Positions 4,990 to 16,221 of a stretch of 32,000 nucleotides of DNA are shown piece after piece (positions within the stretch are counted from its first letter, which is position 1; every line of letters begins with the position of its first letter). Below the pieces are notes generated by a model, which saw only the letters and a list, made by a program, of their open reading frames with translations, did no database searches and was not told the origin of the DNA. The position numbers were made by a program, and so were the translations under genes. The stretch comes from Candidatus Saccharimonadota bacterium (GTDB taxonomy: Bacteria; Patescibacteriota; Saccharimonadia; Saccharimonadales; Saccharimonadaceae): NCBI GenBank assembly GCA_023898645.1, contig CP060232.1, forward strand, positions 330,001-362,000. The letters are read 5' to 3'.

Positions 4990-5302
4990 GGTTTCAGCAC
5001 ATTTATTCCTTCAATACCTAACGTACCAATGATACGAATGACAGCGTATCGGGTATATGCGAGAGTAATTGTAAGGTGTAAATGAGCCTACCGACAAATG
5101 TCGTACGGGTGCGTCAACAAACTTTCAAATAATATTAATTAATATGAAATTGGTCGACACGCGCCCCTTTCCCACCGTCCAATTGCGAGATGGCGAGAAG
5201 AAAGACAGAGTAAGGTAGAGCCCTTGTAGTAATACAGGCGGCAGGAGAACGATAATTCGTAATCAATCAGTTACGGATGGCGAGATATCGTCAGTCGCCC
5301 GC
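4990..5302 (+). promoter_or_regulatory. Long 5' leader of the LysM-CHAP hydrolase gene; possible cis-regulatory RNA
   Basis: About 310 nt lie between the best promoter and the ATG at 5303, with no credible ORF. It contains the hairpin GATACG..CGTATC (5031-5050), the 14-nt AT palindrome ATATTAATTAATAT (5132-5145), and a duplicated GATGGCGAGA (5189-5198 and 5276-5285). Confidence 0.35.
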
Positions 5303-6446: not shown

Positions 6447-7781
<1,335 letters not shown>

Positions 7782-7789
7782 AATAAAAC

Positions 7790-8114
7790 TGATATGTGGG
7801 GTATTTAAACCGGTACCATATTCAGTGGCTGTTGGTTCGTTGCATGAAATGTGACGGATGAAAATCGTTGACTAACAGCCTATAAACTTCCCGGAGGTTG
7901 TCGACCGCTGAGCTAATCGCGAGAATCGACGATCATGAGGGAGAACCCCCGCAGGGTTACGAGAAAACAGTTGCTACGAGGGTAGACGAGTAGGTAAGGA
8001 AACTTACCGATAAGGAATACTCGTCTGCTCACACTGCTTTCCGTACCCTGCGGGGCAAACTACTTCTCAAGCTCAATGCTTGAAATGGGCGACCAAATGG
8101 TCGCCCTTATTTTA
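7790..8114 (+). ncRNA. Candidate structured ncRNA of about 320 nt, class unassigned
   Basis: No plausible ORF. A long-range helix pairs 7946-7961 with 8042-8055 (about 15 bp with one bulge). It encloses helix 7985-7992/8018-8025 and a GGTAAG-GAAA-CTTACC GNRA hairpin (7993-8008). A separate helix pairs 7827-7833 with 7874-7880. The unit ends in an intrinsic terminator. Confidence 0.45.
8087..8114 (+). terminator. Rho-independent terminator
   Basis: GGGCGACC-AAAT-GGTCGCCC stem-loop (8087-8106) followed by TTATTTTA. Confidence 0.7.
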
Positions 8115-8126
8115 TAGCAAAATATA

Positions 8127-8155
8127 TTGACAAAGTAATACTATAGTGATATAGT
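8127..8155 (+). promoter_or_regulatory. Near-consensus sigma70 promoter (TTGACA-17 nt-TATAGT)
   Basis: TTGACA at 8127-8132, a 17-nt spacer, and TATAGT at 8150-8155. It lies immediately after the previous terminator. Confidence 0.6.
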
Positions 8156-8161
8156 AATAAT

Positions 8162-8811
8162 GAAAATCAGTTGAGATATGTAATAGATCCTGATTGGAAC
8201 ATTGAAAAACTGAACATGTTTTACTCGTATCGAGGATCGCTTTTTGTGCATAGTTCGTGCACAGTAAGCGACCCTCGAAAGTGAGTGGGTTGCATGAAGA
8301 TGGAAAACCCTCGAAAGGAGCAGGATGCTTCGATTGATCGTTTACGATAGTAGTTGCTCTACGTAGCAACCTGACTGGTTGATCGGAACTTCCTCGTAGT
8401 GAAGTTTCGTCGTAATAATAGGGTTTTGGCGGTTGGAAAGCATTTCCGCGCCATTGGTGTAGACCCCCTGGCTGACTTCTGAGCCTCTAGAACCGGTACT
8501 AAGATTTCCGGGGATACGTTCGAAGCAGTATTGCAAAATGCAACCATTCACGGAGTACAACTTCATACAGTACAACTTAATATAGTTGGGGGCTGCGGTA
8601 CGGTATTGCCTTGCCGCCCCCCATAAACTTCTGCCTCGGCCAGCCTAGGGCTCGCCTTGAGGACGCAGCAAGAGGATGTGCTATGCCAGTTGAAGGAGCG
8701 CCCATTTCGTATGGTGTAGAAGTCGGATTACCGACGGAATCTCCTTTCTCGCGTAGTGCATATGTATGTTCAGCTTTTTTACCCCGCCCTCGTGGCGGGG
8801 TTTTCGCTTTC
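8162..8811 (+). ncRNA. Candidate large structured ncRNA of about 650 nt, class unassigned
   Basis: Bounded by its own promoter and a strong terminator. Only short, non-ATG, low-quality ORFs occur on either strand. Many helices are visible: 8231-8242/8266-8277 enclosing 8246-8250/8258-8262; 8353-8358/8365-8370; a GC-rich helix 8588-8598/8614-8622; and 8722-8735. Direct repeats are ACCCTCGAAAG (8271 and 8307) and AGTACAACTT (8554 and 8569). Confidence 0.5.
8782..8811 (+). terminator. Rho-independent terminator
   Basis: CCCCGCC-CTCGT-GGCGGGG stem-loop (8782-8800) followed by TTTTCGCTTTC. Confidence 0.75.
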
Positions 8812-8838
8812 TCGAACTAATCCGTTATTATAGGAGGA

Positions 8839-11022: not shown

Positions 11023-13185
11023 TTATAGAATTGGCCTGCTGTCAGGGGAGTCGCCTGTGTCGTTCTGAGTTGGCGCCTGAGTTGGTGTTGGAGTCGGAAC
11101 GGGGGTTGGGTTAGCAATAGGTTCAGTAGGTTCAGTAGGTTCAGTAGGTTCGACGGTAGGTGGGGTTGTAGGCTGAGTGCAAGGTACTTTCTTTTCAACG
11201 GTGGTGGTAGTGCTACAGTTTGAGAGGACGCCACAGACGTTAATAACGCTCGTAACTGTACTATTGCTACAGTTTGACAGAGTGCCGCAGAGGCTTATGA
11301 AACCACTGTTGGTGCTACCGCTACAGTTTGATCCTACGCCACAGACTACGAATGCGCCATTGTTGGTGCTACCGCTACAGTTTGATCCTACGCCACATTT
11401 TACAATGCCTGCGTCATTAGTGCTGTTGTTGCAGTTTGATCCTACGCCACAACTAACGACTGCGGCTTTGTTCGTGCTACCGCTACAGTTTGATCCGACT
11501 CCGCAGCTGACGACGCCTCCCTTGTTGGTGCTGTTGCTACAGTTTGAGCCTACGCCGCAAGTCACGACACCACCTTTATTAGTGCTACCGCTACAATTGG
11601 CTGCTACTCCACAGTCGACGAAAAGGCCGGCATTTGTGCTGTTGCTACAGTTGGCGCCAAGTGTACAGGTGTTCACAACACCGGTATTTGTACTGTTGCT
11701 GCAATTACCAGCTACACAGCCGTTTAGGATGGCGGTATTTGTACTGCCGCTGCTATTACCGCCTACATTGCTGTTTACTGCACCTACATTCTTGCTGCCG
11801 CTACTGTTGTTGCCAATGTTGCTGTTTACCGCTCCTACGTTTGTACTGCCGCTGCTATTACCGCCAATGTTGCTGTTTACCGCTCCTACGTTTGTACTGC
11901 CGCTAGTATTGGATCCGGCGTTACCGTTTACTACGCCAACATTCGTACTACCGCTACAGTTGGAGCCCAGACAGACGTTTGCTAGAGCGACATTTGTCTG
12001 ATCGCTACAGTTTGCACCGTTTGCGCAAATGTTTAGCCATCCAACGTTAGTTTGGTTGCTACAATCTTGTCCGGCTAGGCAGGTGTTGACGCCCACCACG
12101 CCCAGAGCTCCCTGGGCTACCTGAGTAACTCCAGCTGCTGCAGTGGTTAAGCCGCTTTGTACGGCGGCAGAATTACCTGTTACCGCACCGACTACAGCTG
12201 TGCCTAATCCGGAGATACTATTAGCAATACCTTTACCAATCTTTAAAAGGTTAGAGAAGAAGCCGACGAGTTTTACGTCAGATGATCCTGACGCAAGCGC
12301 AACATTGATGTCTGGTGCTCCTGAGGCGACAGCTACGCTCACATTGGCAGAAGCTGAAGTGGCTGAAACTGTGTCGCCACTTGCTGTTGAAGCGACTGTC
12401 GAAGATTTGCTGAGTGCGTTCTTAAGTATGGCTATCTGAGATTTCGACATTGCCGATATAGCAGCTAGGTTTTGCTTAAGATGATCTAAGTCGTACTGGA
12501 TGCTTTTTAACGAAACGAAGCCAGCGGAACCGAGGTTGATGTGTGTGGCGCCGTTTGATTTGGCGGCTTTCATTGTTTGCTGAAGTGTGTCAATCGTGCT
12601 CGCGAGTTTTTTGCTGAATTTAACCTGATGTTGTTGATCAGCAAGTAGCTGAGCTAATTCATTGGCAGGTTTGTATTGTTTAAATTCGAGGTCAATATAA
12701 TATACGACGGCGTTTATTTGCGCAGGGTCTGAACCGGCGTCATCGAGTGCGTTCTTGAGGGCGGTAAGTGACTGTTTTGTTTGGCTCAGAGCTGAATCTA
12801 TCTTGTTTTTGACAGTTGTAGCGTCTGACGAGACATTCTTAATGATCTTTTGATCAGCCTCAATAAAAGCAAGCCTTCGGTTGATTTCGGCGGTTGCCTT
12901 GGCTTTCAAAGAGGTGGGGCTAGCTGATTTATCAGATGCTAACACCACTTGTTGCTCATCGACAGCTTGAAAGGAGCTTCGATGTAATTGGAAGTTTACG
13001 ATATTGGCATCGTTTGCGTCCTTTAAGCTTTGTTTAATGGCTACCGGAGAGACCATTTTGAGTTTTGCAACGCCAGGTTTGGGTACCAGGTATGTCCATG
13101 AAACATAGGCTACACCCACCACTAACAGTAATCCGACAATGATACTGACAAGTACTAATGGGCTTTTGAGTTTGGCTGGAAGCAT
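11023..13185 (-). CDS. Membrane-anchored Cys-ladder solenoid-repeat protein (paralog 1), unknown family
   Basis: 720 aa. It has an N-terminal signal anchor (LVLVSIIVGLLLVVGVAYV) and a helical region at aa 90-260 that is paralogous to the neighbouring gene (AKSNGATHINLGSAGFVSLKSIQ). A Gly/Ala/Val-rich segment follows, then 17 tandem 17/18-aa coils (aa 369-669) and a Pro/Thr-rich tail. Confidence 0.85.
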   Translation of the reverse strand: MLPAKLKSPLVLVSIIVGLLLVVGVAYVSWTYLVPKPGVAKLKMVSPVAIKQSLKDANDANIVNFQLHRSSFQAVDEQQVVLASDKSASPTSLKAKATAEINRRLAFIEADQKIIKNVSSDATTVKNKIDSALSQTKQSLTALKNALDDAGSDPAQINAVVYYIDLEFKQYKPANELAQLLADQQHQVKFSKKLASTIDTLQQTMKAAKSNGATHINLGSAGFVSLKSIQYDLDHLKQNLAAISAMSKSQIAILKNALSKSSTVASTASGDTVSATSASANVSVAVASGAPDINVALASGSSDVKLVGFFSNLLKIGKGIANSISGLGTAVVGAVTGNSAAVQSGLTTAAAGVTQVAQGALGVVGVNTCLAGQDCSNQTNVGWLNICANGANCSDQTNVALANVCLGSNCSGSTNVGVVNGNAGSNTSGSTNVGAVNSNIGGNSSGSTNVGAVNSNIGNNSSGSKNVGAVNSNVGGNSSGSTNTAILNGCVAGNCSNSTNTGVVNTCTLGANCSNSTNAGLFVDCGVAANCSGSTNKGGVVTCGVGSNCSNSTNKGGVVSCGVGSNCSGSTNKAAVVSCGVGSNCNNSTNDAGIVKCGVGSNCSGSTNNGAFVVCGVGSNCSGSTNSGFISLCGTLSNCSNSTVTSVINVCGVLSNCSTTTTVEKKVPCTQPTTPPTVEPTEPTEPTEPIANPTPVPTPTPTQAPTQNDTGDSPDSRPIL
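11121..11154 (-). repeat. 9-bp in-frame tandem repeat encoding (TEP)n in the Pro/Thr tail
   Basis: GTTCAGTAG occurs 3 times in perfect tandem (11121-11147), followed by a degenerate copy. It translates on the minus strand as PTEPTEPTEP. Confidence 0.9.
11179..12081 (-). repeat. Coding tandem-repeat array: 17 units of 51/54 bp (17/18 aa)
   Basis: The coils follow C-x4/5-C-S-x-S-T-N-x-G-x-x-x-x. The 42-nt perfect copy GCCAATGTTGCTGTTTACCGCTCCTACGTTTGTACTGCCGCT occurs at 11812-11853 and again at 11863-11904, a 51-bp offset. Confidence 0.9.
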
Positions 13186-13231: not shown

Positions 13232-15877
13232 TTAATTCATCTCGTGCCGTACGCTAAAGGAAGAAGAAGCAGTGGTAAAGCTTGCAAGCAACGGCAACGT
13301 ATTACGGCTGTCAGGAACGTAGGCTACTGAAGTGTCCACTAGGCACTGATTGACGACGACAGTTTTGATTGTAGTACTACAATTGGACAACAGGCCGCAG
13401 CTATATATAGGGTTATTAGTCGTAGTGTTACTACAGTTTGATCCCAGTCCGCAGAGGCTTAAGAAGCTATTGGTAGTCTCACCGGTGCAGTTCGAGGCAA
13501 CACCGCAAATCGAGAGTGCGCCATTGTTCGTCTTGCCGGAGCAGTTAGAGGCAAGACCGCAAACCATAACACCCTCGTTATTTGTAGAATTTGAGCAGTC
13601 TGATAGTGTGCCACAGAGACTCGCAACACCACTATTGATAGCATTTGAGCAGTTAGACAACGTACCACACCTTTGAACTAGGCCGTTATTGATAGCATTT
13701 GAGCAGTTAGACAACGTACCACACTTTTGGTAGACGCCGTTGTTCGAAATATTGTAGCAGTCGGACAGTACGCCACACTTTAGTATGAAGCCGTTGTTTG
13801 TGCTGTCGGTGCAGTTTGAACCTATGCCACATTTTTGCACGATACCGTTGTTGACTGCATTCGTACAGTTAGACAGTAGTCCACATACCTGTACTTTGCC
13901 ATTATTAATCGCGTCAGTGCAGTTAGACAGCGTACCGCATCTCTGGTAAACCCCGTTGTTTGTGATGTTAGAGCAGTCAGACAGGGTGCCACACCTCATC
14001 ACAACGCCGCTATTCATGGCATTCGTACAGTTAGACAACGTGCCGCATGTCTGTACAACACCGCTATTAATTGCATTTGAGCAGTTCGATAGCGTGCCAC
14101 ATGCTTGGTAGACGCCGTTGTTCGTAATGTTCGTACAGTTAGACAGCGTTCCGCACCTTAGTATGAAGCCGTTATTTGAACCGTCCGTGCAGTTAGAGCC
14201 GACACCACATTTCTGTATGAGGCCATTGTTGACTGCATTCGTACAATTAGACAACGTACCGCATACCTGCACGACACCGTTGTTAATCGCATTGGCACAG
14301 TTAGACAGCGTACCGCATCTCTGGTAAACCCCGTTGTTTGTGATGTTAGAGCAGTCAGATAATGTTCCGCATCTTAATAACACACCGTTATTCGTATCGT
14401 CAGTACAGCTTGATCCGATGCCGCATGTCTGTACGCCACCATTGTTTGTATTTCCGCTACAAATCGATGCCACGCCGCAGTTTACAAATACACCATTGTT
14501 AGTATTATTAGCGCATTCAGACAAAAGACCGCACGATAATGTACCGCCGTTGTTAATGGCATTAGAACACTTAGATAATGCGCCGCATACTTGTATGAGG
14601 CCTTTGTTGATATCGTCAGAACATTTAGACAATGTGCCGCATGATTGGTAGACACCGTTGTTCGTAATATTAGAGCAGCTAGACAATGATCCGCATTTCA
14701 ATATAAATCCATTATTTGTATTGTCCTTGCAGGTTGACAGTGTTCCGCACTTCAGTATGACACCATAATTTATAGCATCGGTACAATGAGATGCTGATCC
14801 GCATAATTCTACTATGCCTTTGTTGACAGCATTAGAGCAGTTAGACAACGTGCCGCACTTTTGGTAAGCGCCGTTATTTGTGATATTCGAGCAGTTAGAC
14901 AAACTGCCGCATCTTAGAACAAATCCGTCGTTCGTGTTATTTTTACAGTTCGATCCTAGGCCGCACGTCTCTGAGACGCCGCTATTTGAGTTGTCTGTAC
15001 AATTAGCTCCTATGCCACAAGCTGTTATATAGCCATAATTTGTATTACCGTTGCAGTTTGATCCCAGTCCGCAGATGCTGACCCCGTATCTGTTTCCTGT
15101 CACCAGGTTGCTCAATTGACTAAGGCCAAGTCCTGTATTTGTGAGAGTGTTTTGAGCAACGGATAGTTGATTGAAAACAAGTGCCGCCTGGTCGGTTGAT
15201 GGGTTGGTCAGCTCGTCCCTAATCAATATAGATAATGAAGACGATATGCTTTGTTCAACGGTTGTGCTTGTTTCGAGTCCTTGCCTCAGCGCGTTTAATT
15301 GAGTCTGAATGGTCTGAAGTGGGACAAAGCCTGCGACACCTCCGTTGACGTGAGTCGCTCCATTCGCCTTTGCTGCGTCAATGGATTTTTGAACTGAAGC
15401 TGCAGAATCCTTTAGCTTAGTAATAAGCTGATTCTGTAAGTGCAAATCATTAAGTAACGTAGACGACTGATTGACTGCTGCGTATTTATTAAAATTAGAA
15501 TCAACCTTTGAAGCTATGTCCTTGAGTACTTTTGTATTACTGGCATCAGTGTTGTCTACTTTGCTTAGCAGATCGGTCAGATCTTTTTTGACTGAATTTA
15601 GGTCAGACTTTAGTTTCTCTAGAGTGGCATTTGGAACGTCGTGTTCGGAATCAACGAGTTTTAAATCGGCGTTAATGGTGTTTAGCCGACGTCCTATTTC
15701 CGTAGTGATTGAAACTGACAAATTTACGTCAACGGCTGTCGACGGAGCGACGGCCAGAGCGGGTACTACGCTTTGACCTGCTATGACGACTGCAGAAAAC
15801 AAGGCGAATGCCGATTGAATAAACTTGCGATTAATGTGAAGGATTGATTGTTGCATAGTCATTACCTTATTTATCAT
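13232..15877 (-). CDS. Secreted Cys-ladder solenoid-repeat protein (paralog 2), unknown family
   Basis: 881 aa with a Sec-type signal peptide (FIQSAFALFSAVVIAGQSVVPALA|VAPS) and a helical region paralogous to paralog 1 (AKANGATHVNGGVAGFVPLQTIQ). Exactly 32 uninterrupted 18-aa coils span aa 269-845. The true start may be Met8 (ATG at 15856), which has AAGG 8 nt upstream. Confidence 0.85.
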   Translation of the reverse strand: MINKVMTMQQSILHINRKFIQSAFALFSAVVIAGQSVVPALAVAPSTAVDVNLSVSITTEIGRRLNTINADLKLVDSEHDVPNATLEKLKSDLNSVKKDLTDLLSKVDNTDASNTKVLKDIASKVDSNFNKYAAVNQSSTLLNDLHLQNQLITKLKDSAASVQKSIDAAKANGATHVNGGVAGFVPLQTIQTQLNALRQGLETSTTVEQSISSSLSILIRDELTNPSTDQAALVFNQLSVAQNTLTNTGLGLSQLSNLVTGNRYGVSICGLGSNCNGNTNYGYITACGIGANCTDNSNSGVSETCGLGSNCKNNTNDGFVLRCGSLSNCSNITNNGAYQKCGTLSNCSNAVNKGIVELCGSASHCTDAINYGVILKCGTLSTCKDNTNNGFILKCGSLSSCSNITNNGVYQSCGTLSKCSDDINKGLIQVCGALSKCSNAINNGGTLSCGLLSECANNTNNGVFVNCGVASICSGNTNNGGVQTCGIGSSCTDDTNNGVLLRCGTLSDCSNITNNGVYQRCGTLSNCANAINNGVVQVCGTLSNCTNAVNNGLIQKCGVGSNCTDGSNNGFILRCGTLSNCTNITNNGVYQACGTLSNCSNAINSGVVQTCGTLSNCTNAMNSGVVMRCGTLSDCSNITNNGVYQRCGTLSNCTDAINNGKVQVCGLLSNCTNAVNNGIVQKCGIGSNCTDSTNNGFILKCGVLSDCYNISNNGVYQKCGTLSNCSNAINNGLVQRCGTLSNCSNAINSGVASLCGTLSDCSNSTNNEGVMVCGLASNCSGKTNNGALSICGVASNCTGETTNSFLSLCGLGSNCSNTTTNNPIYSCGLLSNCSTTIKTVVVNQCLVDTSVAYVPDSRNTLPLLASFTTASSSFSVRHEMN
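13343..15073 (-). repeat. Coding tandem-repeat array: 32 units of 54 bp (18 aa), no indels
   Basis: Consensus coil is CGTLSNCSNAINNGVVQx. A 37-nt perfect copy occurs at 13634-13670 and 13688-13724, a 54-bp offset. A 62-nt perfect copy occurs at 13920-13981 and 14298-14359, a 378-bp offset equal to 7 coils. Confidence 0.95.
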
Positions 15878-15878
15878 T

Positions 15879-16142
15879 TCATTCAGCTAACTTAACTTGT
15901 TTTTCGTCAATTGCATCCGTGGCTTTGATGTGAGCATCAGATTCTTTTTTTGCCGTGTCGTTTGCATTAACTAGGCTTTTTTGGATGACTTTGGGAGCTA
16001 CCAGTTTGGTACTCGTTGGTTTATTGGCATTCAAATAGGTTAAAGTGACGAACGTGACCCCCGCTATTAAGAGTAGTCCTATGACGATACCGCCTGATAC
16101 ATATGGGTTTTTGAGTTTGGCTAGAAACTGCCTCATATCCAA
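15879..16142 (-). CDS. Small membrane-anchor protein homologous to the N-terminus of paralog 1
   Basis: 87 aa. AKLKNPYVSGGIVIGLLLIAGVTFVTLTYL...VIQKSLVNAND...IDEKQVKLAE aligns with paralog 1 residues 4-85 (AKLKSPLVLVSIIVGLLLVVGVAYVSWTYL...AIKQSLKDAND...VDEQQVVLAS). Its TGA stop is 1 nt from the next ATG. Confidence 0.7.
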   Translation of the reverse strand: MDMRQFLAKLKNPYVSGGIVIGLLLIAGVTFVTLTYLNANKPTSTKLVAPKVIQKSLVNANDTAKKESDAHIKATDAIDEKQVKLAE

Positions 16143-16193
16143 CTTTCTTTACTGTTATTCTACCCTTACACGCTTTTGCTTATACTAGGTAAA

Positions 16194-16221
16194 TTATACA
16201 TGCCCAAATATCCGTGTCAAC
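16194..16221 (-). promoter_or_regulatory. Consensus sigma70 promoter for the solenoid-protein operon
   Basis: On the minus strand, TTGACA (16221..16216), a 16-nt spacer, and TATAAT (16199..16194). This gives a leader of about 45 nt before the ATG at 16142. Confidence 0.6.

What the first reader, a model, noticed from the sequence alone, without database searches (positions are those of the whole stretch)
13343..15073. 32 uninterrupted 18-residue coils with hexad sub-period and a higher-order super-repeat
From Cys269 to Cys845 of paralog 2, every coil is exactly 18 aa (54 bp), with no indel across 32 units. The invariant positions are C1, G2, S5, C7, N9/N12-13 and G14. Coil types recur in order: a ..C[TK]D.[TS]NNGF[IV]L[KR] coil is always followed by a ..CSNITNNGVYQ. 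coil, then by N-A-[IV]-N coils. This gives a super-repeat of roughly 4 coils. Coils 14 and 21 are identical (CGTLSDCSNITNNGVYQR), and they are backed by a 62-nt perfect DNA duplicate at 13920-13981 and 14298-14359, exactly 7 coils apart. Such recent duplication implies ongoing expansion or contraction by recombination, so coil number may vary between strains. Nearly every coil also carries N-x-S/T tripeptides (N-C-S/T, N-I-T). I note this but do not infer glycosylation from it.
Basis: partly seen in the sequence, partly recalled or inferred. Interest (0 to 1): 0.75.

Follow-up and report, generated by a model that had tools for sequence, protein, structure and literature searches.

The report
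Disulfide-stapled beta-solenoid surface rod, Saccharibacteria
The repeat is real: it encodes a 32-turn, probably disulfide-braced protein rod on the surface of a tiny parasitic bacterium (Saccharibacteria), from a very rare unannotated family, but the duplications that built it are ancient, not recent.

Summary
Observation confirmed. ORF 13232-15877 (-) encodes an 881-aa protein. Residues 269-844 are 32 units of exactly 18 aa. All 65 Cys are spaced 6/12, and the 62-nt perfect duplicate lies 378 nt (7 units) from its copy.

The array is predicted with high confidence (AlphaFold2 pLDDT 93) as a three-stranded beta-solenoid. Its only structural neighbours are right-handed beta-helices, and all are weak. 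Cys are gained and lost only as same-unit pairs, which argues for one C1-C7 disulfide per coil.

The protein has a signal peptide and a helical N-domain. It sits in a conserved operon: a small membrane anchor, this protein, then a paralog with the anchor fused. The host is a Saccharibacterium.

No Pfam, NCBIfam or PDB sequence match was found. About a dozen relatives exist among billions of proteins, with 9-17 coils against 32 here.

The "recent duplication, ongoing expansion" reading is not supported. Duplicated blocks are 67-77% identical in DNA, with dS 1.3 or higher and dN/dS about 0.09. The 62-nt identity is best read as a gene-conversion patch. Coil number does vary between species, always by whole coils.

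Sequons are not enriched beyond composition. Function (surface fibre, spacer or adhesin) is inferred. The copy number is not independently verified, because short-read contigs break inside the repeat.

The parts
16193..16220 (-). Perfect sigma-70-type promoter match (TTGACA-16-TATAAT, 12/12) upstream of the three-gene operon
   Evidence: sequence. This is a consensus match only and function is not shown.
15879..16142 (-). Small single-pass membrane ORF (87 aa), the 'anchor' module. Its stop lies 1 nt before the ATG of the coil protein.
   Evidence: Homologous ORFs precede coil proteins in L001, L002 and L086, and precede a stand-alone N-domain protein in L093. The same module is fused to the N-terminus of paralog 1 and of P0008.
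13232..15877 (-). Coil protein 'paralog 2', 881 aa
15749..15877 (-). Sec-type signal peptide (about residues 1-43, ...PALA/VA). The likely true start is Met8 (ATG 15856), by comparison with orthologs and AGG spacing.
   Evidence: read from the sequence and the alignment. No signal-peptide predictor was available.
15074..15748 (-). Helical N-domain (about residues 44-268). It holds the family's most conserved motif, AAKANGATHVNGGVAGFV, and the junction GLSQLSNLVTGNR.
   Evidence: helices, low pLDDT; aligns over its full length with stand-alone secreted proteins of about 250 aa
13346..15073 (-). Array of 32 x 18-aa (54-nt) coils, consensus C-G-t-L-S-N-C-s-N-a-t-N-N-G-v-v-q-k
14534..14965 (-). 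Coils 3-10: two ABCC four-coil blocks, a lineage-specific expansion upstream of the landmark coils
14426..14533 (-). Coils 11-12: the landmark pair (..NGVFVN / CGVASICSG..), found once in 11 of the 12 family members examined, with a variant form in the twelfth (P0007)
13616..14425 (-). Coils 13-27: ABCC, ABCC, BCC, ABCC. This is a lineage-specific expansion downstream of the landmark coils.
13994..14371 (-). Seven-coil block, copy 1 (coils 14-20)
   Evidence: 77% nt identity to copy 2, dS 1.33, dN/dS 0.09
13616..13993 (-). Seven-coil block, copy 2 (coils 21-27)
14298..14359 (.). 62-nt perfect repeat, copy in coils 14/15. Putative gene-conversion tract. Logan contigs of the same strain end at 14330 inside it.
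13920..13981 (.). 62-nt perfect repeat, copy in coils 21/22
13633..13724 (.). 38-nt exact repeat between adjacent coils 26 and 27 (13687-13724 and 13633-13670)
13232..13345 (-). Odd 65th Cys (C845) and a 36-aa C-terminal tail, followed by the stop codon. The tail carries a conserved ..LPL.. motif. There is no LPXTG motif and no beta-barrel.
11023..13185 (-). Paralog 1 (720 aa). In order: fused anchor module, N-domain, Ser/Ala/Gly linker, 3 Cys coils, 4 Cys-less 17-aa coils, 10 Cys coils, odd Cys, Pro/Thr-rich tail.

Best explanation
The array encodes the shaft of an extracytoplasmic fibrous protein of a Candidatus Saccharibacteria (TM7) bacterium.

After a Sec signal peptide and a helical base domain of about 220 aa, 32 coils of exactly 18 residues stack into a narrow three-faced beta-solenoid. 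The solenoid is predicted to be right-handed. At about 4.8 A per coil (general knowledge) the rod would be roughly 15 nm long, against 4-8 nm in relatives.

Each coil is probably closed by a disulfide between C1 and C7. These two Cys bracket the longest turn (G2-x-L4-S5). G2 and G14 sit in turns, N12/N13 form Asn ladders, and L4, I/T11, V15 and V/I16 fill the core. The 65th Cys is conserved in every family member. It is left unpaired or makes an intermolecular bond.

The gene sits in a conserved operon: small single-pass membrane protein, this protein, then a paralog in which that membrane module is fused to the N-terminus. This implies that the helical base docks on the membrane anchor and the rod points away from the cell. 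I infer a surface fibre, spacer or adhesin, plausibly used in the epibiotic lifestyle.

The exceptional length arose by ancient in-register duplications, now strongly diverged at synonymous sites. These were a 4-coil ABCC unit, which now occurs five times plus one BCC remnant, and a 7-coil block. They lie on both sides of a conserved landmark coil pair. Register has been strictly maintained, since only whole-coil changes survive. One recent short gene-conversion patch of 62 nt is superimposed.

Shown: the repeat anatomy, conservation, operon synteny, divergence statistics and fold prediction. Inferred: the disulfide pairing, cell-surface location, orientation and function.
For: Anatomy and periodicity.

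Real gene under purifying selection: homologs P0001-P0009 and P0056 share the same architecture. dN/dS is 0.06-0.10 between duplicated blocks.

Fold:
- AlphaFold2 on 12 coils gives pLDDT 93.4 and pTM 0.83, with all five models at 89 or above. DSSP shows strands at positions 16-1, 6-8 and 11-12 of every coil.
- The full-length model has pLDDT 70-85 across the array.
- Foldseek neighbours are nearly all right-handed beta-helices or beta-solenoids: GH28, TibA (TM 0.54), AlgE4, SRRP and Ag43. No LpxA-like left-handed helix appears.

Disulfide pairing:
- In the 12 family proteins I examined (about 180 units), Cys occur as both C1 and C7 or as neither.
- Paralog 1 has 4 Cys-less units and P0008 has 7. 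The flanking units keep both Cys.
- The C1-C7 distance varies (5, 6 or 7 residues) while C7 to the next C1 stays at 12.
- Every member has 2n+1 Cys in its coil array (P0002 carries one further Cys at residue 12, in the N-terminal leader).

Operon and anchor.

Taxon: the best GTDB matches of YceG are overwhelmingly named Saccharibacteria or Patescibacteria, and the top matches all are. The lysM-TM7 RNA motif lies at 5086-5247.

Old duplications plus a conversion patch.

Whole-coil length variation around a landmark.

Adhesins are required for epibiotic growth of cultivated Saccharibacteria: PMC10633639. This gives context only, since this family was not studied there.
Against: - No coordinates were available, so Cys-Cys distances and side-chain orientation were not measured.
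- The handedness rests on a prediction from a shallow, partly self-derived alignment, and on weak Foldseek scores (best E 8.6e-4, TM 0.54 or lower).
- The sequence has a weak hexad sub-period and 18 residues per turn, which also fits a left-handed hexapeptide helix.
- There is no experimental evidence of secretion, of disulfide formation in Saccharibacteria, or of surface display.
- No sortase, S-layer or cell-wall-binding motif was found.
- The N-domain model has low confidence (pLDDT 35-73) and no known homolog, so the docking idea rests on gene fusion and synteny alone.
- The copy number of 32 is not confirmed by an independent assembly.
Confidence: 0.65

Rival explanations
1. The array is a hypervariable contingency locus. 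Recent duplication and frequent unequal recombination change coil number between strains or cells.
For: - A 62-nt and a 38-nt perfect in-register repeat exist.
- Coil number differs widely among family members, 9-32.
- Recombination between the two 62-nt copies would remove or add exactly 7 coils in frame.
Against: - Blocks are 67-77% identical in DNA with saturated synonymous divergence (dS 1.3 to above 3) and dN/dS about 0.09.
- No long identical tracts exist apart from these two.
- The flanks are 99.98-100% identical in about ten sequencing runs, so this is one clonal strain. The array itself is not assembled in those runs, so there is no direct evidence either way.
Confidence: 0.15
2. The coils form a left-handed hexapeptide-type beta-helix (LpxA-like, 3 x 6 residues per turn), and the AlphaFold model has the wrong hand.
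For: - There are exactly 18 residues per turn.
- A lag-6/12 sub-period is present.
- Hexads C-G-x-x-S-x, C-S-x-x-[TI]-x and N-G-x-x-x-x partly resemble [LIV]-[GAED]-x2-[STAV]-x.
- The spruce budworm antifreeze protein is a left-handed helix with core disulfides (from my own knowledge).
Against: - No Pfam Hexapep match appears even at E of 1 or lower.
- The i positions are C, C and N, not aliphatic.
- The model partitions each coil 8/5/5, not 6/6/6, in all coils and with high confidence.
- No left-handed helix appears among 50 listed PDB neighbours.
Confidence: 0.1
3. The length of the array is an assembly artefact. The true gene has 25 or 39 or more coils, because the 7-coil loop between the 62-nt repeats was traversed the wrong number of times.
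For: - Every k=31 Logan contig of this strain stops at 14330, 30 nt inside the 62-nt repeat. Others stop at 11336 in paralog 1's repeats.
- The exact 881-aa and 720-aa products are not on record in the collection searched.
Against: - The two 7-coil copies differ at 23% of positions, so both exist. The unique flanks fix their order.
- The frame is open and in register across all 32 units.
- A 62-nt repeat is shorter than ordinary reads.
Confidence: 0.12
4. The solenoid is a functional surface of another kind, either an ice, mineral or glycan-binding face like insect antifreeze proteins, or a carbohydrate-active enzyme like the GH28 top hits.
For: - It is a very regular disulfide-braced solenoid with outward Ser/Thr/Asn columns.
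- GH28 polygalacturonases are the best Foldseek hits.
Against: - There is no T-x-T or T-C-T ladder. Position 6 is N and position 8 is S/T.
- There are no loops or cleft, since every coil is exactly 18 residues.
- The hits are weak (TM 0.25-0.43 to GH28) and there is no sequence match to any enzyme family.
- The one relative whose sample type I could read (L002/L003) comes from activated sludge; the sources of the other samples were not looked up.
Confidence: 0.05

Closest known systems
Autotransporter passenger beta-helices with about 19-residue coils (TibA 4q1q, Ag43 7koh, AIDA-I type)
   Same: A long, narrow, right-handed three-faced beta-helix of near-identical short coils, used as a surface adhesin or rod. 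TibA gives the highest TM-score (0.54/0.45), and Ag43 tops the search with the full-length model.
   Different: There is no sequence similarity, no C-terminal beta-barrel translocator and no outer membrane in this host. Coils are 18 rather than 19 residues. Two Cys per coil are present here and absent there. The anchoring is N-terminal.
Disulfide-braced insect antifreeze beta-helix (Tenebrio/Dendroides AFP, 12-residue coil TCTxSxxCxxAx)
   Same: An extremely regular solenoid with two Cys six residues apart in every coil, which form one intra-coil disulfide (from my own knowledge). No coil-length indels are tolerated.
   Different: The coil is 12 rather than 18 residues. The AFP is eukaryotic, has 7 coils against 32, and carries a T-C-T ice-binding ladder that is absent here. 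There is no Pfam match. Pairing here is inferred, not seen.
Hexapeptide-repeat left-handed beta-helix (Pfam PF00132, LpxA-like)
   Same: 18 residues per turn with a hexad sub-period and small residues at i+1 and i+4.
   Different: The profile is not matched. The i positions are Cys, Cys and Asn. The predicted hand and side lengths differ. This protein is extracellular and far longer.
Bacterial ice-nucleation proteins (16-residue coils with a 48-residue higher-order repeat)
   Same: A very long uninterrupted solenoid array with a higher-order super-repeat of several coils (PMC9418140 abstract, seen; the 48-residue order is from my own knowledge).
   Different: The coil length and motif differ, there are no Cys, it is an outer-membrane protein of Gammaproteobacteria, and there is no sequence relation.
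Serine-rich-repeat protein binding region of Lactobacillus reuteri (5nxk), a Gram-positive beta-solenoid adhesin
   Same: A right-handed beta-solenoid adhesin domain of a monoderm bacterium. It appears among the Foldseek hits.
   Different: The match is weak (TM 0.26-0.36). Its coils are irregular, it has an LPXTG anchor and accessory Sec export, and it has no per-coil Cys.
Unannotated proteins with the same C-x5-C-x11 coil: P0012 (1617 aa, with phage tail-fibre repeats and three Fn3 domains), P0053 (870 aa), phrog_15341
   Same: 18-residue units with Cys spaced 6/12 and N-x-G turns. E is 2.7e-10 to the family profile for P0012, and 4.4e-6 between the window protein and phrog_15341.
   Different: They lack the N-domain and the anchor operon and have different residues around the Cys. 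It is not resolved whether this is homology or convergence.

Membership tests
Hexapeptide-repeat left-handed beta-helix (PF00132) | Match to the Hexapep profile | tested here: not met
   hmmscan against Pfam at E of 1 or lower lists no Hexapep family
Hexapeptide-repeat left-handed beta-helix (PF00132) | Aliphatic residue at position i of each hexad ([LIV]-[GAED]-x2-[STAV]-x) | tested here: not met
   Column composition gives C (32/32), C (32/32) and N (22/32) at the three i positions
Hexapeptide-repeat left-handed beta-helix (PF00132) | Left-handed, equilateral 6+6+6 coil | tested here: not met
   The model (pLDDT 93) has strands starting at positions 16, 6 and 11, an 8/5/5 partition. Only right-handed neighbours were found. 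This test is model-based.
Right-handed parallel beta-helix (pectate-lyase-like superfamily) | Three strands per coil, right-handed stacking | tested here: met
   DSSP of both models, plus Foldseek neighbours GH28, AlgE4, tailspikes and Ag43. This rests on prediction only.
Right-handed parallel beta-helix (pectate-lyase-like superfamily) | Sequence-profile membership (Beta_helix, Pectate_lyase_3 etc.) and irregular coils of 22 or more residues with functional loops | tested here: not met
   No Pfam or NCBIfam hit. All coils are exactly 18 residues.
Autotransporter adhesins (AIDA-I/Ag43/TibA) | C-terminal beta-barrel translocator domain | tested here: not met
   Only 36 residues (846-881) follow the terminal Cys845, and there is no Pfam hit
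Autotransporter adhesins (AIDA-I/Ag43/TibA) | Passenger helix of about 19-residue coils | tested here: inconclusive
   Structural similarity to TibA is TM 0.54 with rmsd 7.6 A and 16% identity. The coil is 18 residues.
Disulfide-braced insect AFP beta-helix | One intra-coil disulfide per coil | not testable with these tools
   No model coordinates were accessible. Indirect support is the both-or-none Cys pattern per unit and the 2n+1 Cys count.
Disulfide-braced insect AFP beta-helix | 12-residue coil with a T-C-T ice-binding ladder | tested here: not met
   The coil is 18 residues, and the residues flanking C7 are N6 and S/T8
LPXTG (sortase) anchored Gram-positive adhesins | C-terminal LPXTG-type motif followed by a hydrophobic stretch and a basic tail | tested here: not met
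   A regex search found no motif in either paralog. The tails are hydrophilic.
The new family itself (operational definition) | Signal peptide or fused anchor, then a helical N-domain with AAK[AST]N[GN]A[TD]H..G..GF, then the junction GLSQL.N...G, then C-x5-C-x11 coils, then an odd terminal Cys | tested here: met
   All features are present in both window paralogs, in P0001-P0008 and P0056, and in the 547-aa ORF of L001

The most novel reading that the evidence does not exclude
This is the longest known member of an undescribed, extremely rare family of disulfide-stapled 18-residue beta-solenoid fibres. The family is confined to a narrow clade of environmental Saccharibacteria. It is built as a modular system of membrane anchor, helical base and rod. 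Rod length is set by whole-coil duplication, and the conserved odd C-terminal Cys covalently links the two co-encoded paralogs, or links the tip to a partner. The result would be a length-tunable tether between epibiont and host cell.
Probability: 0.3. Interest if true: 0.7.

Novelty: new variant of a known kind. Interest (0 to 1): 0.5.

Why it matters
Patescibacteria, and Saccharibacteria in particular, live attached to other bacteria. Their envelope proteins are largely unannotated 'dark matter'. Adhesins are known to be needed for epibiotic growth, but few are defined.

This locus gives a concrete and testable candidate for a surface fibre system. It consists of an anchor, a helical base and a rigid rod whose length differs up to about 3.5-fold between species (9-17 coils against 32).

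For structural biology and protein design, a 32-turn solenoid with perfectly constant pitch and an apparent disulfide in every turn is an unusually clean natural scaffold. It is a bacterial counterpart of the insect antifreeze architecture at a different coil size. It also shows how register is preserved over long evolutionary time: dS is saturated yet no coil carries an indel.

Tried and rejected
- Pfam, NCBIfam and a PDB sequence search on both paralogs gave only coiled-coil noise. PADLOC was not run.
- A profile scan of GTDB species genomes for the family motif gave 29 pattern matches and no relative.
- Two JGI metagenome scans, one with protein motifs and one with an exact 35-mer, found nothing.
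- tblastn of 12 coils against 50,697 phage genomes gave no match.
- The exhaustive HMM search found 50 hits. Most 'coil' hits (P0010, P0011, P0016, P0020, P0030, P0035, P0049, P0052 and others) are unrelated low-complexity Cys-periodic repeats, several of which look eukaryotic to me, and were discarded.
- A ClyA-like pore-former reading of the N-domain rested only on 1qoy at E 1.2 and probability 0.14, from a low-confidence part of the model. The profile search of the PDB gave only aspartate-receptor and HA2 coiled-coil noise. I dropped this idea.
- N-glycosylation sequon enrichment was tested by shuffling and is not significant.
- A word-indexed search with the N-domain profile added only P0056 and P0057.
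- Cluster look-ups returned no names.
- I tried to force a register-shifted MSA of coil blocks. MAFFT staggered the rows instead, but the model was still confident.
- Literature searches found no description of this family.
Full report
**1.

ORF 13232-15877 on the minus strand encodes 881 aa. From Cys269 (codon at 15073) to Cys845 (codon at 13343) the protein has 65 Cys. It has none elsewhere. Their spacings alternate 6, 12, 6, 12 without exception, which gives 32 units of exactly 18 residues.

Column counts are as follows:

| Position | Count |
|---|---|
| C1, G2, C7 | 32/32 each |
| S5 | 31/32 |
| N12 | 29/32 |
| G14 | 28/32 |
| N13 | 22/32 |
| L4 | 21/32 |
| N9 | 19/32 |

Self-identity is 0.55 at lag 18, against about 0.045 at unrelated lags. 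A weak but real sub-period gives 0.16 at lags 6 and 12 and 0.105 at lags 3 and 15. TRF reports periods of 54 and 378 nt.

Coils 14 and 21 are identical in protein sequence. The 62-nt perfect duplicate at 13920-13981 and 14298-14359 is verified.

The coil-type order A (..GF[IV]L[KR]), B (NITNNGVYQ), C, C is present in coils 3-6, 7-10, 13-16, 17-20 and 24-27. Coils 21-23 form a BCC remnant. Mean DNA identity between coils peaks at offsets of 4 (0.64) and 7 (0.66).

N-x-S/T tripeptides number 27, against 21 +/- 3.7 in shuffles. They are a by-product of composition.

**2. Organism and locus**

The window is chromosomal DNA of a Candidatus Saccharibacteria (TM7, Patescibacteria) bacterium.
- The best GTDB matches of its YceG protein are overwhelmingly named Saccharibacteria or Patescibacteria, and the top matches all are, at 64% identity or lower.
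- The Rfam motif lysM-TM7 lies at 5086-5247, upstream of the LysM/CHAP gene.
- The neighbours are housekeeping genes: FtsA-like, RuvX, YceG, Obg, ExoI, UvrA, L25 and UvrC.

On the minus strand, a perfect TTGACA-16-TATAAT match (16220-16193) precedes three genes. These are an 87-aa single-pass membrane ORF (16142-15879), the 881-aa coil protein, which starts 1 nt after that ORF's stop, and the 720-aa paralog 1 (13185-11023).

The same order, uvrA / small ORF / coil protein / coil protein / ... ExoI / Obg, recurs in an activated-sludge contig (L002/L003). L001 shows a variant of it.

The small ORF is homologous to the first 90 or so residues of paralog 1 and of P0008. In those proteins it is fused in front of the helical domain. 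It also precedes P0056 in an unrelated context, and precedes a stand-alone N-domain protein, P0057. This fusion-fission pattern is the basis for inferring that the anchor and the helical domain work together.

**3. The family is real, rare and unannotated**

Pfam, NCBIfam and PDB sequence searches give nothing meaningful.

The word-indexed search of 5.8 billion clusters found six relatives, at 37-45% identity. The exhaustive profile search of 1.84 billion representatives found only five hits below 1e-30. Four of these are family members (P0002, P0007, P0008, P0009) and the fifth (P0010) is a spurious repeat. No relative is present in the 185,579 GTDB species genomes or in the JGI contig set scanned.

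All members share one architecture: a signal peptide or fused anchor, a helical N-domain with the invariant AAK.N.A.H..G..GF hairpin, the junction GLSQLSN..TGNR, C-x5-C-x11 coils, and one extra C-terminal Cys.

The N-domain alone aligns end to end with a wider family of secreted helical proteins of about 250 aa, which are also unannotated. So the coil array is a C-terminal addition to an older module.

**4. Structure**

The full-length AlphaFold2 model is weak overall (mean pLDDT 64) but reaches 70-85 across the array.

A 12-coil segment (residues 449-664) gave pLDDT 93.4 and pTM 0.83, with all five models at 89 or above. Every coil shows the same pattern: a strand at positions 16-18 plus the next C1, a four-residue turn at G2-S5, a strand at N6-S8, a turn, a strand at 11-12, and a turn at N13-V15.

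Foldseek against the PDB and BFVD returns almost only right-handed beta-helices. These are GH28 polygalacturonases (best E 8.6e-4), TibA (TM 0.54), AlgE4, SRRP, Ag43 and phage tailspikes. The exceptions are pentapeptide-repeat proteins (right-handed quadrilateral beta-helices) and a few scattered unrelated folds. No LpxA-type left-handed helix appears. All scores are weak, so no solved structure is a close match.

I could not access coordinates. The disulfide pairing is therefore inferred from sequence.
- Among the roughly 180 coil units of the 12 family proteins I examined, Cys occur as both C1 and C7 or as neither.
- Paralog 1 has four consecutive Cys-less 17-aa units and P0008 has seven. 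The flanking units retain both Cys.
- A C7(n)-C1(n+1) pairing scheme would leave two stranded Cys several coils apart.
- The C1-C7 distance varies (5, 6 or 7) while C7 to the next C1 is fixed at 12.

This favours an intra-coil C1-C7 staple across the longest turn, as in the 12-residue insect antifreeze helix (that comparison is from my own knowledge). It also leaves the conserved final Cys odd in every member's coil array.

**5. History of the array**

A landmark pair of coils (..G[VL]FVN / C.....C[AS]G) occurs once in 11 of the 12 members checked; P0007 carries a variant form of it. Relatives have 2-8 Cys coils before it and 6-10 from its second coil onward. The window protein has 11 and 21. 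Relatives total 9-17 coils. So this lineage expanded on both sides of the landmark, using the ABCC unit and a 7-coil block.

The duplications are old.
- The 7-coil copies are 77% identical in DNA, and 73% outside the perfect run. They differ at 40 synonymous and 23 non-synonymous codons, with dS 1.33, dN 0.12 and dN/dS 0.09.
- The ABCC blocks are 67-74% identical, with dS from 1.7 to above 3 or not computable, and dN/dS 0.06-0.10 where it could be computed.

On that background a 62-nt perfect run has a chance probability of about 1e-6. Its synonymous sites are all identical. A short recent gene-conversion tract is therefore the best reading. The only other exact repeat of 21 nt or more is 38 nt, between coils 26 and 27.

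Its weaker prediction, that coil number varies among relatives and always in whole coils, is borne out at species level.

**6. Assembly check**

Contigs from ten independent assemblies (nine SRA runs assembled by Logan, of which eight were seen by name, plus one ENA assembly) are 99.98-100% identical to the window's flanks. None spans the array.
- Two Logan contigs end at 14330, exactly 30 nt inside the 62-nt repeat, as expected for k=31.
- Five end at 11336, in paralog 1's repeats.
- One MEGAHIT contig ends at 12889.
- The exact 881-aa and 720-aa products are not on record.

Because the two 7-coil copies are 23% diverged and the flanks are unique, their order is determined. The multiplicity of the loop between the 62-nt copies is formally unverified.

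**7. Mechanism, with shown and inferred steps marked**

Shown:
- This is a conserved, selected gene that encodes a perfectly periodic array predicted to be a solenoid.
- It lies in an operon with a membrane-anchor module that is fused in the paralog.
- The Cys are paired by unit.
- Length varies by whole coils.

Inferred:
- The protein is exported. The signal peptide ...PALA/VA was read by eye.
- The helical base docks on the anchor.
- The rod of about 15 nm projects from the cell as a fibre, spacer or adhesin.
- The odd Cys may form an intermolecular bond.

Cultivated Saccharibacteria need several adhesins for epibiotic growth (PMC10633639). This family was not part of that work.

**8. Comparison and novelty**

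The array works like an autotransporter-type or SRRP-type beta-helical adhesin shaft and like a disulfide-braced antifreeze helix. It fails the membership tests for each.
- There is no profile match.
- There is no translocator and no LPXTG motif.
- The coil length is wrong for the antifreeze helix.
- The residues and predicted hand are wrong for the hexapeptide helix.

Similar C-x5-C-x11 coils occur in a 1617-aa protein with phage tail-fibre repeats (P0012), in an 870-aa secreted protein (P0053), and weakly in phrog_15341. The coil type may therefore be more widespread than this family.

I class it as a new variant of a known kind, beta-solenoid surface proteins. It is of moderate interest. 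The repeat is striking and the family is unannotated, but the dynamic-array claim that drove the original score is not supported.

Noticed in passing
window 15879-16142 (-) and paralog 1 residues 1-90 (window 12916-13185): An 87-aa single-pass membrane ORF directly upstream of the coil gene is homologous to the N-terminus of paralog 1 and of P0008. This is a gene fusion/fission pair. The same small ORF precedes coil proteins in L001, L002 and L086, and precedes a stand-alone N-domain protein in L093.
   Followed up: yes
window 11719-11922 (-), paralog 1 residues 422-489: Four consecutive Cys-less coils of 17 aa (N.G.N[ST]SGS.N.G.VNS; TRF period 51) interrupt the Cys-coil array of paralog 1. 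The ortholog P0008 has seven such units.
   Followed up: partly
window 11023-11180 (-), including the 9-bp tandem repeat at 11118-11151: Paralog 1 ends in a Pro/Thr/Glu-rich tail, (TEP)n then PTPVPTPTPT. The tail is absent from paralog 2 and from the orthologs. It may be a wall-spanning or linker segment.
   Followed up: no
window 13232-13345 (-) and the C-termini of all relatives: Every family member has 2n+1 Cys in its coil array (one extra Cys after the last coil). A short tail follows, with conserved NSDG.P and ..LPL.. motifs. It is not a sortase signal.
   Followed up: partly
window 5086-5247 (+): Rfam lysM-TM7 RNA motif (RF03005, 92 bits) upstream of the LysM/CHAP peptidoglycan hydrolase gene. 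It independently marks the window as Saccharibacteria.
   Followed up: no
window 14330 and 11336; loci L084, L085, L087-L092: Short-read contigs of the identical strain from about ten sequencing runs all terminate at these two positions inside the coil-gene repeats. Public assemblies therefore systematically truncate both genes.
   Followed up: yes
window 15854-15877 (-): The annotated ATG at 15877 is probably not the true start. Met8 (ATG 15856) has an AGG about 9 nt upstream and matches the ortholog N-termini (MKQLL.HIN.K). The residue numbers used here would then shift by 7.
   Followed up: partly
proteins P0012, P0053; phrog_15341: Unrelated proteins carry 18-residue C-x5-C-x11 coil arrays. 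P0012 is a 1617-aa protein with phage tail-fibre repeats and Fn3 domains. P0053 is an 870-aa secreted protein. phrog_15341 matches the window protein at E 4.4e-6.
   Followed up: partly
proteins P0013-P0034, P0043, P0044, P0050 (alignment A5): The N-domain belongs to a wider, unannotated family of secreted helical proteins of about 250 aa. Many of them (P0013-P0034) end in a hydrophobic helix. Some members look actinobacterial by composition, and Actinobacteria are the host phylum of cultivated Saccharibacteria.
   Followed up: partly
window 7770-8838: A stretch of about 1.07 kb between Obg and ExoI has no ORF of 100 aa or more. It has two short tandem repeats (8123-8159 and 8554-8586). No Rfam hit reaches the gathering threshold there.
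   Followed up: no
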